Source of the DNA: Candidatus Helarchaeota ASGARD archaeon Hel_GB_B
GTDB lineage: Archaea; Asgardarchaeota; Lokiarchaeia; Helarchaeales; HEL-GB-B
NCBI GenBank assembly: GCA_005191425.1
Contig: SUPR01000021.1
Span: 1-32,000 of the forward strand
Length of the DNA: 32,000 nucleotides
Direction: 5' to 3'
The translations under genes and the position numbers were made by a program. The notes beneath the pieces are model-generated. The model was not told the DNA's origin. It worked only from the letters and a program-made list of their open reading frames with translations, and searched no databases. How positions within the stretch are numbered: the first letter of the stretch is position 1; each line of letters starts with the position of its first letter. Shown here piece after piece: positions 4,004 to 4,417 of the stretch.

Positions 4004-4417
4004 ATGAATGAAAAATTCTTTTTAAGGTTTGTAATGGCGATATTAGGAACTGGTAATGATTTAAACGCTAAAGTAGTATCAATAGCATTTAGAGATAGTG
4101 GATTTGAAATAGTTTATCTAGGTGATAATAATACACCAGATGAAATAGTACGAGCCGCTTTACAAGAAGATGTAGATGCAATATATTTATCAGTTCCGGA
4201 GAAATCCAGCGTAAATTTAATTAAGGAGACCCTAGATATTGCAAAAAATAGTAATTTCTTTGATTCATCTAAGAAATTTATTTTTGCAGGAGGGGTTGAC
4301 TTATCTAATGATGAAATTCAAAAATTGAAGGACTATGGATTAACTGAAATATATAGACCAAGTAAAAAAACTCATGAAATCGTTGAAAATATTTTAAAAT
4401 TATTTGAAAACAATTGA
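4004..4417 (+). CDS. Second cobalamin-binding-domain paralog lacking DxHxxG
   Basis: Aligns end to end with 3383-3796 (AKVVSIAFRDSGFEIVYLG...TPDEIVRAALQEDVDAI...FAGG), but has GTGNDLN in place of GLDGHDRG. Start moved to ATG 4004 (MNEKF parallels MSEKP; AAAGGT upstream); the track gives 3983. Confidence 0.85.
   Translation: MNEKFFLRFVMAILGTGNDLNAKVVSIAFRDSGFEIVYLGDNNTPDEIVRAALQEDVDAIYLSVPEKSSVNLIKETLDIAKNSNFFDSSKKFIFAGGVDLSNDEIQKLKDYGLTEIYRPSKKTHEIVENILKLFENN

What the first reader, a model, noticed from the sequence alone, without database searches (positions are those of the whole stretch)
4004..4417. His-less second B12-binding domain inside the mutase/MeaB operon
Seen: a tandem paralog of the small subunit with GTGNDLN replacing GLDGHDRG (Co-ligand His to Asn at 4055-4057, Asp lost, one-residue deletion) and SVPEK replacing SILSG; the rest of the fold is conserved and the ORF is intact. 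Established: bacterial heterodimeric mutases have an inactive beta subunit lacking DxHxxG, while split archaeal mutases normally use a single small subunit. Inference: a dedicated cofactor-free structural or regulatory subunit (split-enzyme analogue of the beta subunit), a MeaB docking decoy, or a base-on B12 carrier between CobO and the mutase.
Basis: partly seen in the sequence, partly recalled or inferred. Interest (0 to 1): 0.7.

Follow-up and report, generated by a model that had tools for sequence, protein, structure and literature searches.

The report
Cofactor-blind copy of B12-mutase small subunit
An Asgard archaeon keeps, next to the genes that load vitamin B12 into a mutase enzyme, a duplicated B12-binding subunit that has lost every B12-holding residue but is still conserved, so it probably acts as a cofactor-free helper or regulator rather than as a dead gene.

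Summary
Window 4004-4417 (+) encodes a 137-aa protein 44% identical to the canonical mutase small subunit 200 bp upstream. It still scores as a B12-binding domain and folds like one (pLDDT 92.6).

It has lost the Lys-Asp-His triad. The pocket glycines are now Asn, Tyr and Lys, and SxL reads SVP.

It is not a decaying duplicate:
- About ten orthologues exist at 53-71% identity, all intact and all with the same new invariant residues.
- dN is 0.26-0.33 against saturated dS, so dN/dS is at most about 0.25, roughly three times faster than the canonical copy.
- The order small(His) / His-less / meaB is kept in three lineages.

The family is narrow: 2 of 400 Asgard genomes, both in one genus, and one 50%-identity cluster among 1.84 billion representatives. 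A second, probably independent, His-less family exists in other Helarchaeota MAGs.

Changes concentrate on the cofactor face (14 of 20, p=2e-5). The beta2 edge and acidic residues that MeaB grips in PDB 8DPB are unchanged.

Best reading: a cofactor-free pseudo-small subunit, most likely a MeaB partner or a beta-like dummy subunit. The mechanism is inferred. I class it as a new variant of a known kind, of moderate interest.

The parts
4004..4417 (+). His-less pseudo-small subunit gene (137 aa; the stop codon is included).
   Evidence: ORF. 44% identity to the canonical copy. PF02310 at 42.3 bits. Orthologues start MNEK/MNKN, which supports ATG 4004. AF2 pLDDT 92.6.
4040..4066 (+). Remodelled beta1-alpha1 loop (I13 to N21). 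The triad Lys becomes Ile, Asp is lost, His becomes Asn (4055-4057), Arg becomes Leu and the motif Gly becomes Asn (4064-4066).
   Evidence: Sequence. Column comparison of 9 His-less against 71 canonical sequences.
4184..4210 (+). Remodelled beta3-alpha3 loop. Gly becomes Tyr61 (4184-4186), the SxL Leu becomes Pro65, Gly becomes Lys67 (4202-4204) and His becomes Ser/Asn69.
4367..4375 (+). Family-invariant K122-T123-H124 at the beta5-alpha5 loop. It replaces the canonical PG(S/T)xx region.
3958..3974 (+). BRE/TATA-like element AAGAAATTTTTAATTAT, about 37 nt upstream of ATG 4004. It is conserved in three lineages within an otherwise diverged AT-rich spacer.
   Evidence: Alignment of the three spacers. 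Promoter function is inferred and was not tested.
3383..3796 (+). Canonical small (B12-binding) subunit with an intact DGHDRG, SIL and GG; the parent copy of the duplication.
   Evidence: PF02310 at 85.8 bits and TIGR00640 at 145 bits. Its tree position next to the His-less clade.
4462..5442 (+). MeaB G-protein chaperone, 44 bp downstream of the His-less gene. It is the only MeaB in the genome.
   Evidence: PF03308 at 298 bits and TIGR00750 at 338 bits. Single copy. Switch I and switch III motifs are present.
5444..5980 (+). CobA/CobO-type ATP:corrinoid adenosyltransferase, abutting meaB.
   Evidence: PF02572 at 190 bits.
3..1673 (-). Acyl-CoA mutase large (substrate-binding) subunit, divergently transcribed behind the thiolase-like and DUF35 genes.
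   Evidence: TIGR00641 at 783 bits. PF01642.

Best explanation
The gene encodes a stand-alone pseudo-small subunit. It arose by tandem duplication of the operon's own B12-binding subunit in one Helarchaeales genus-level lineage. It kept the flavodoxin-like fold but lost the ability to hold cobalamin in the base-off/His-on mode. The Lys-Asp-His triad is gone, and the nucleotide-tail pocket is filled by Asn21, Tyr61 and Lys67. It is maintained by purifying selection. It appears to head its own transcription unit with meaB and cobO. It keeps unchanged the beta2 edge strand and the acidic residues (D31, E55/D56) that the MeaB chaperone grips on a real cobalamin domain. The most likely mechanism, which is inferred, is that it docks on the MeaB dimer as a cofactor-free stand-in for a cobalamin domain. 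It would thereby tune MeaB's GTPase or conformation, or occupy one of its two client sites. That would give this split enzyme the active/inactive asymmetry that the beta subunit gives bacterial heterodimeric mutases. What is shown: paralogy, loss of the motifs, conservation, synteny, fold, and the spatial bias of the changes. What is inferred: no B12 binding, MeaB docking, and the promoter.
For: Paralogy and motif loss.

Fold: AF2 mean pLDDT 92.6, with best PDB matches 2YXB, 4R3U_C and 8DPB_C at TM 0.80-0.87.

Selection: dN 0.26-0.33 with dS above 1, against dN 0.09-0.13 for the canonical copy and MeaB. All about ten orthologues are intact.

Synteny: thiolase / small(His) / His-less / meaB in the window, in G001 and in metagenome contig L122. 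The 42-44 bp spacing to meaB is conserved.

Origin: the His-less clade has 100/100 support and joins its own genus's operon copy at 91-94/79-87.

Spatial bias: 14 of 20 switched or lost positions lie in the loops after the beta-strands, against 5.5 expected (p=2e-5). Alpha1, beta2 and alpha2 are conserved.

MeaB precedent: an isolated apo cobalamin domain binds MeaB through its edge beta-strand plus Asp609, Asp632 and Asp634, and stimulates the GTPase 25-fold (PMC9974510). These map to F34-Y38, D31, Q54 and D56 here, and all are conserved.

In relatives without the paralogue, the canonical small gene sits 21-23 bp from meaB (overlapping it in G002), which is the place the His-less copy holds here.
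Against: No binding or complex prediction could be run, so MeaB docking rests on conservation of a region that is also the most conserved structural core of the family. One of the five 8DPB salt bridges cannot form: the MeaB K189 equivalent is Ala in all Helarchaeales checked. Another (D632) is Gln in both the canonical and the His-less copy. The new invariant residues on the former cofactor face (Y61, K67, K122, H124) suggest a selected function on that face, which the MeaB-edge model does not explain. The family is very narrow, so the function is dispensable for nearly all split mutases. The residue mapping to M. extorquens numbering is derived from alignment offsets, not from coordinates.
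Confidence: 0.45

Rival explanations
1. It is a beta-like dummy subunit. The protein binds a mutase large subunit in place of the real small subunit, either the operon's own or the orphan large subunit on contig C160. It caps or stabilises an apo barrel, or creates half-of-sites enzymes. MeaB is not its main partner.
For: The genome has three large subunits but only two canonical small subunits plus this one. New invariant residues cluster on the face that normally meets the large subunit. The precedent is the inactive beta subunit of heterodimeric MCM, which is established knowledge.
Against: Relatives also have an orphan large subunit but no His-less paralogue, so the two do not co-occur. 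The docking face is the part that changed most, and in canonical enzymes much of that interface is mediated by the cofactor itself. The gene is linked to meaB-cobO rather than to a large-subunit gene.
Confidence: 0.25
2. It is a ligand-binding module with a new specificity. The rebuilt pocket (N21, Y61, K67, K122, H124) binds a corrinoid in a non-canonical mode or another anionic ligand such as a nucleotide, triphosphate or CoA. The protein would then act as a carrier or sensor for the MeaB/CobO loading machinery.
For: The replacements are invariant rather than random. They are polar or basic, and they lie at the C-terminal ends of the beta-strands, where Rossmann-like folds bind ligands. The gene is adjacent to the adenosyltransferase.
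Against: The residue at the former His position is not conserved (N, D or S). Three pocket glycines needed for the dimethylbenzimidazole tail are replaced by bulky residues. No known family with such a site was matched.
Confidence: 0.15
3. It is a non-functional relic of a tandem duplication that is on its way to loss.
For: It evolves about three times faster than the canonical copy. Its distribution is narrow. All cofactor motifs are lost.
Against: The reading frame is intact in about ten lineages down to 53% identity. dN/dS is at most about 0.25, similar to the neighbouring DUF35 and phosphodiesterase genes. 42 columns are invariant among the eight closest members, including new family-specific residues. 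The upstream element and the spacing to meaB are conserved.
Confidence: 0.07

Closest known systems
Canonical small (B12-binding) subunit of split acyl-CoA mutases (TIGR00640 / PF02310; e.g. Aeropyrum pernix 2YXB, HcmB of 2-hydroxyisobutyryl-CoA mutase 4R3U chain C)
   Same: Same length, same flavodoxin-like fold (TM 0.84-0.87) and same operon. It has 44% identity to the neighbouring copy. The GG motif, the Ser of SxL and the alpha1/beta2/alpha2 region are conserved.
   Different: There is no His ligand and no Asp or Lys of the triad. The Gly of DxHxxG is Asn. SxL has lost its Leu, and two further pocket glycines are Tyr and Lys. There is a one-residue deletion in the motif loop and a one-residue insertion after GG.
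Inactive beta subunit (MutA, TIGR00642) of heterodimeric bacterial methylmalonyl-CoA mutase
   Same: It is a mutase-derived paralogue that has lost cobalamin binding and is retained next to the active subunit. It could supply an active/inactive asymmetry.
   Different: The origin is independent: there was no TIGR00642 match in the NCBIfam scan, and in the tree it joins its own genus's canonical small subunit. It is a 137-aa stand-alone domain, not a roughly 620-aa two-domain chain. It is confined to one archaeal genus-level lineage.
[quoted passage not shown]
   Same: It is a free, cofactor-less Rossmann domain of the same fold (TM 0.80). Its edge beta-strand and Asp residues, which form the MeaB interface, are conserved here.
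   Different: 8DPB is an engineered fragment of a real B12 domain, whereas this is a natural gene that can no longer take up the cofactor. Binding to the archaeal MeaB is untested. One salt-bridge partner on MeaB is absent.
Second His-less small-subunit family in other Helarchaeota MAGs (P0074, P0222 = MHA1301754.1, P0223 = MHA1379843.1)
   Same: Also 137 aa, with His replaced by Asn or Asp, the SxL Leu lost and GG kept. It comes from the same archaeal order.
   Different: It keeps the triad Lys and Asp and the Gly before SxL, and it has no indels. It branches with a different canonical copy (G005, 94/83), although an AU test does not reject a single origin (p=0.17). Its gene context could not be retrieved.

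Membership tests
Acyl-CoA mutase B12-binding domain (PF02310 / TIGR00640) | Sequence match above the curated cut-off | tested here: met
   PF02310 at 42.3 bits (cut-off 32.1). TIGR00640 at 66 bits (cut-off 57.45). Both are far below the canonical copy's 85.8 and 145 bits.
Acyl-CoA mutase B12-binding domain (PF02310 / TIGR00640) | Five-stranded flavodoxin-like alpha/beta fold | tested here: met
   AF2 pLDDT 92.6, pTM 0.88, with the b1-a1-b2-a2-b3-a3-b4-a4-b5-a5 order. Foldseek top hits are 2YXB and 4R3U_C, with probability 1.00.
Acyl-CoA mutase B12-binding domain (PF02310 / TIGR00640) | DxHxxG motif with the cobalt-ligating His (plus the Lys of the Lys-Asp-His triad) | tested here: not met
   The sequence reads T-G-N-D-L-N, and the Lys is replaced by Ile. 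This holds in all members, with N, D or S at the His position.
Acyl-CoA mutase B12-binding domain (PF02310 / TIGR00640) | SxL motif and flanking glycines that line the dimethylbenzimidazole pocket | tested here: not met
   Ser63 is kept. Leu becomes Pro (or Thr, Val or Gly in some members), the preceding Gly becomes Tyr61 and the following Gly becomes Lys67.
Acyl-CoA mutase B12-binding domain (PF02310 / TIGR00640) | GG motif | tested here: met
   G96-G97 are conserved; one orthologue has SG.
Acyl-CoA mutase B12-binding domain (PF02310 / TIGR00640) | Binds (adenosyl)cobalamin | not testable with these tools
   This needs UV-vis or ITC with purified protein. The sequence argues against base-off/His-on binding.
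MCM inactive beta subunit (MutA, TIGR00642) | Sequence membership and two-domain architecture of about 620 aa | tested here: not met
   There was no TIGR00642 hit at E<=1e-5. The protein is 137 aa, and no fused longer form was found.
MCM inactive beta subunit (MutA, TIGR00642) | Mutase paralogue that lacks the cobalamin ligand and is retained beside the active chain | tested here: met
   This is a functional analogy only.
MeaB client cobalamin domain (as in PDB 8DPB) | Exposed beta2 edge strand plus acidic residues equivalent to D609 and D634 | tested here: met
   F34-Y38, D31 and D56 are invariant or near-invariant in the His-less family. The mapping is by alignment offsets.
MeaB client cobalamin domain (as in PDB 8DPB) | Physical binding to MeaB and stimulation of its GTPase | not testable with these tools
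   No multimer prediction or assay was available.

The most novel reading that the evidence does not exclude
Helarchaeales have evolved, possibly twice, a natural cobalamin-domain mimic. Its only job would be to engage the G-protein chaperone MeaB as a built-in GTPase activator, placeholder or decoy, and so control when the adenosyltransferase-to-mutase hand-off of B12 happens. This would be a genetically separate regulator of a metallochaperone, made from a disabled copy of that chaperone's client.
Probability: 0.3. Interest if true: 0.65.

Novelty: new variant of a known kind. Interest (0 to 1): 0.45.

Why it matters
B12 delivery to mutases by MeaB/MMAA and the adenosyltransferase is medically relevant, because defects cause methylmalonic aciduria, and it is mechanistically unsettled. 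A natural, stable, cofactor-blind cobalamin domain that keeps the chaperone-docking edge would separate docking from cofactor binding. That would give a clean reagent and a natural experiment on how the chaperone reads its client. It would also be a stand-alone pseudo-subunit of a split B12 enzyme, for which I found no description in the four literature searches. It arose independently of the bacterial beta subunit, so it would be a case of convergent active/inactive pairing. Its narrow distribution limits how far it generalises.

Tried and rejected
The gene context of P0004, P0008, P0071 and of the second family (P0222, P0223) could therefore not be fetched.
- The genome-contig scan with the family alignment was swamped by a generic pattern. 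It returned only canonical bacterial small subunits and gave nothing useful.
- A motif-specific DNA pattern in metagenome contigs gave two loci. One is a near-copy of G001.
- dS is saturated, so dN/dS is only an upper bound. The YN00 method failed, so NG86 was used.
- I tested whether the His-less copy is the missing partner of the orphan large subunit on C160. Relatives have the orphan without the paralogue, so this was rejected as the sole explanation.
- I tested for co-evolution with MeaB switch III (KK to KA). The change is shared by relatives that lack the paralogue, so this was rejected.
- Rfam found no RNA element at 1-9000.
- No fused His-less forms exist. The one longer hit, P0341, is an ordinary IcmF-like fragment with the His present.
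- The literature searches found no description of such a paralogue.
Pocket filling is therefore inferred from residue identities and published structures, not measured.

Full report
**Observation**

The window carries an acyl-CoA mutase locus.
- On the minus strand, in order of transcription: a thiolase-like gene (2048-3277), a DUF35/OB-fold gene (1689-2042) and a mutase large subunit (3-1673).
- On the plus strand, transcribed divergently: a canonical small B12-binding subunit (3383-3796), the gene in question (4004-4417), MeaB (4462-5442), a CobA/CobO-type adenosyltransferase (5444-5980) and a PF01663 phosphodiesterase-family gene.

The two small proteins are both 137 aa and 44% identical end to end (E=3e-39).

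- [11 protein letters not shown] becomes AILGT-GNDLN, with the His-to-Asn codon AAT at 4055-4057.
- SILSGAH becomes SVPEKSS.
- The protein still passes the curated cut-offs of PF02310 (42.3 against 32.1 bits) and TIGR00640 (66 against 57.45), but with about half the score of the canonical copy.

**It is a real, conserved family, but a narrow one**

- A search of 5.8 billion proteins found seven further clusters at 61-71% identity. One is named as a Helarchaeota MAG protein. After these the scores fall abruptly to ordinary small subunits at 37% identity or less.
- A profile search of 1.84 billion 50%-identity representatives found only one protein at E<1e-30. This is P0071, a more distant member from a 'Lokiarchaeota' MAG. 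The next score drops from 196 to 122 bits.
- Among 400 genomes of the phylum, only the window's genome and the one other genome of its genus carry it (244 and 235 bits). All other best hits are canonical copies at 137 bits or less.
- All members share the same rewritten motifs, [ND][DE]LNA[KR]V, [YF]LS.x.K and KTH, and all are intact.

**Synteny**

The same-genus genome G001 has the complete arrangement: large subunit, DUF35 and thiolase on one strand, then small(His), His-less, MeaB, CobO, phosphodiesterase and epimerase on the other. A metagenome contig from a third lineage (L122) has thiolase, then small(His), His-less and MeaB.

The His-less gene lies 42-44 bp from meaB in all three. The canonical gene is separated from it by a 124-207 bp AT-rich spacer.

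In families of the same order that lack the paralogue, the canonical small gene itself sits next to meaB (21-23 bp away in two genomes, overlapping it in a third), and cobO is not adjacent.

The spacers have diverged, but all three keep AAGAAATTTTTAATTAT-like sequence about 37 nt before the ATG (window 3958-3974). This looks like an archaeal BRE/TATA pair. If it is one, the start codon would be 4004 and the His-less gene would lead a His-less/meaB/cobO unit. That is an inference.

**Selection**

Pairwise Nei-Gojobori estimates among the three available nucleotide sequences give the following:
- His-less gene: dN 0.26-0.33 with dS 1.1-1.4, which is saturated.
- Canonical small subunit, MeaB, thiolase and CobO: dN 0.07-0.13.
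- DUF35 and phosphodiesterase genes: dN 0.23-0.24.

The gene therefore evolves about three times faster than its parent, but with dN/dS at most about 0.25. It is not a pseudogene in the making.

**Origin**

In maximum-likelihood trees the His-less family is monophyletic (100/100) on a long stem of 0.85-1.13. It attaches beside the canonical operon copies of its own genus; the split from all other small subunits has 91-94/79-87 support. This fits a tandem duplication in that lineage followed by rapid change. The placement of so long a branch is not secure.

**What changed and what did not**

I compared nine His-less with 71 canonical sequences column by column.

Twenty positions are either switched to a new invariant residue or have lost conservation. 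Fourteen of these lie in the 38 residues that run from the last residue of each beta-strand to the second residue of the following helix. That is the cofactor face. The expected number is 5.5 (p=2e-5).

The changed positions include:
- the whole Lys-Asp-His triad (K13 to I, the Asp lost, His to N/D/S);
- the motif Gly (to N21) and the Arg before it (to L20);
- the Gly before SxL (to Y61), the SxL Leu (to P65), the next Gly (to K67) and the next His (to N/S69);
- the PG of the last loop.

From established structures of MCM, MetH and glutamate mutase, these glycines make room for the dimethylbenzimidazole tail. Bulky replacements should therefore fill that pocket.

The residue at the former His position is not conserved, which argues against a new ligand at that spot.

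By contrast, the following are unchanged: alpha1 (AKV..A.RD.G), beta2 (E..Y.G), alpha2 and its end (P...AA.QEDVD.I), GG and G112.

The AF2 model is confident (pLDDT 92.6). It matches 2YXB, HcmB (4R3U_C), the IcmF B12 domains and 8DPB_C at TM 0.80-0.87.

**Link to MeaB**

PDB 8DPB and its paper (PMC9974510) show that an isolated, cofactor-free cobalamin domain binds MeaB.
- MeaB switch I adds a sixth strand alongside residues 612-616 of the domain.
- Salt bridges involve D609, D632 and D634, plus E577 in the linker.
- This alone stimulates the GTPase 25-fold.

Using the alignment offsets and the construct numbering, I mapped these residues onto the His-less protein. Residues 612-616 correspond to F34-Y38 (beta2), D609 to D31, D634 to D56 and D632 to Q54. 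Position 54 is Gln in the canonical archaeal copies too, with E55 next to it. All of these are invariant or nearly so in the His-less family.

The window's MeaB has the P-loop and the switch I, II and III motifs. The K189 equivalent is Ala, but this is true of all Helarchaeales checked, with or without the paralogue. MeaB is single-copy in this genome.

**Interpretation**

The solid part is this: the gene is a selected, cofactor-blind pseudo-small subunit that arose from the operon's own small subunit. I put confidence in that at about 0.8.

The mechanism is inferred. I favour a MeaB partner that occupies a cobalamin-domain docking site on the chaperone dimer and tunes its GTPase or conformation. 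This would give a split enzyme the asymmetry that the inactive beta subunit gives bacterial heterodimeric MCM. Overall confidence in the best explanation as stated is 0.45.

The rivals are as follows.
- **A beta-like cap for a large subunit.** The genome has three large subunits but only two canonical small ones. However, relatives have the same orphan large subunit without the paralogue.
- **A rebuilt ligand site.** The invariant N21, Y61, K67, K122 and H124 cluster on the old cofactor face.
- **A relic.** This is contradicted by the conservation.

**A second family**

P0074, P0222 and P0223, all from Helarchaeota MAGs, form another His-less group. Their motifs are GQDG[ND]DR and SV[DNT]S, and they keep the triad Lys and Asp.

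This group branches with a different canonical copy (94/83). An AU test does not reject a single origin with the first family (p=0.17).

Among 296 small-subunit-like proteins sampled, only these two families and one singleton (P0190, His to Arg) lack the His, apart from one N-terminally truncated fragment, P0068.

**Comparison with what is known**

It works like, but is not a member of, the MutA beta-subunit family: there is no TIGR00642 match, and size and origin differ. It is a member of the PF02310/TIGR00640 fold family by sequence and structure. It fails that family's functional hallmarks, DxHxxG and SxL. I found no description of such a paralogue in the four literature searches.

**Verdict**

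I class the finding as a new variant of a known kind, with interest 0.45.

Noticed in passing
P0074, P0222 (MHA1301754.1), P0223 (MHA1379843.1); not in the window: A second His-less small-subunit family occurs in other Helarchaeota MAGs. Its motifs are GQDG[ND]DR and SV[DNT]S, and the triad Lys and Asp are kept. It branches with a different canonical copy, so the His may have been lost independently. Its gene context is unknown.
   Followed up: partly
window 3958-3974: An AAGAAATTTTTAATTAT element about 37 nt upstream of ATG 4004 is conserved in three lineages inside an otherwise diverged AT-rich spacer. It looks like an archaeal BRE/TATA pair. Oligo-T runs follow the canonical small gene.
   Followed up: partly
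G000:C160:23161-24702 (L039:8102-9733) and L039:6567-7871: An orphan mutase large subunit with no adjacent small subunit or MeaB is preceded by a PF01663 phosphodiesterase-family gene. This echoes the PF01663 gene after cobO in the window (6030-7523). Relatives have an orphan large subunit of the same high-scoring type, not next to any of their small-subunit hits.
   Followed up: partly
L039:4224-6395 (-), G000 contig C160: A roughly 722-aa protein has Pfam hits to PCI, E3_UFM1_ligase and DDRGK domains, an unusual eukaryote-like combination in an archaeon.
   Followed up: no
window 1689-3277 (-): A thiolase-like gene and a DUF35 gene are co-oriented with the mutase large subunit. An earlier scan note (e1-5393201) reports that the thiolase lacks its catalytic cysteines. 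The whole locus may therefore encode several disabled enzyme folds.
   Followed up: no
window 4462-5442 (MeaB), residues GDSIQAQKAG: The second Lys of the MeaB switch III 'KK' (K189 in M. extorquens, which bridges to the cobalamin domain in 8DPB) is Ala in all five Helarchaeales MeaB proteins checked.
   Followed up: yes
P0190 (ENA contig of 970 bp): A singleton small subunit has DGRDRG (His to Arg) with the other motifs largely intact. It could be a sequencing error or a recent inactivation.
   Followed up: no
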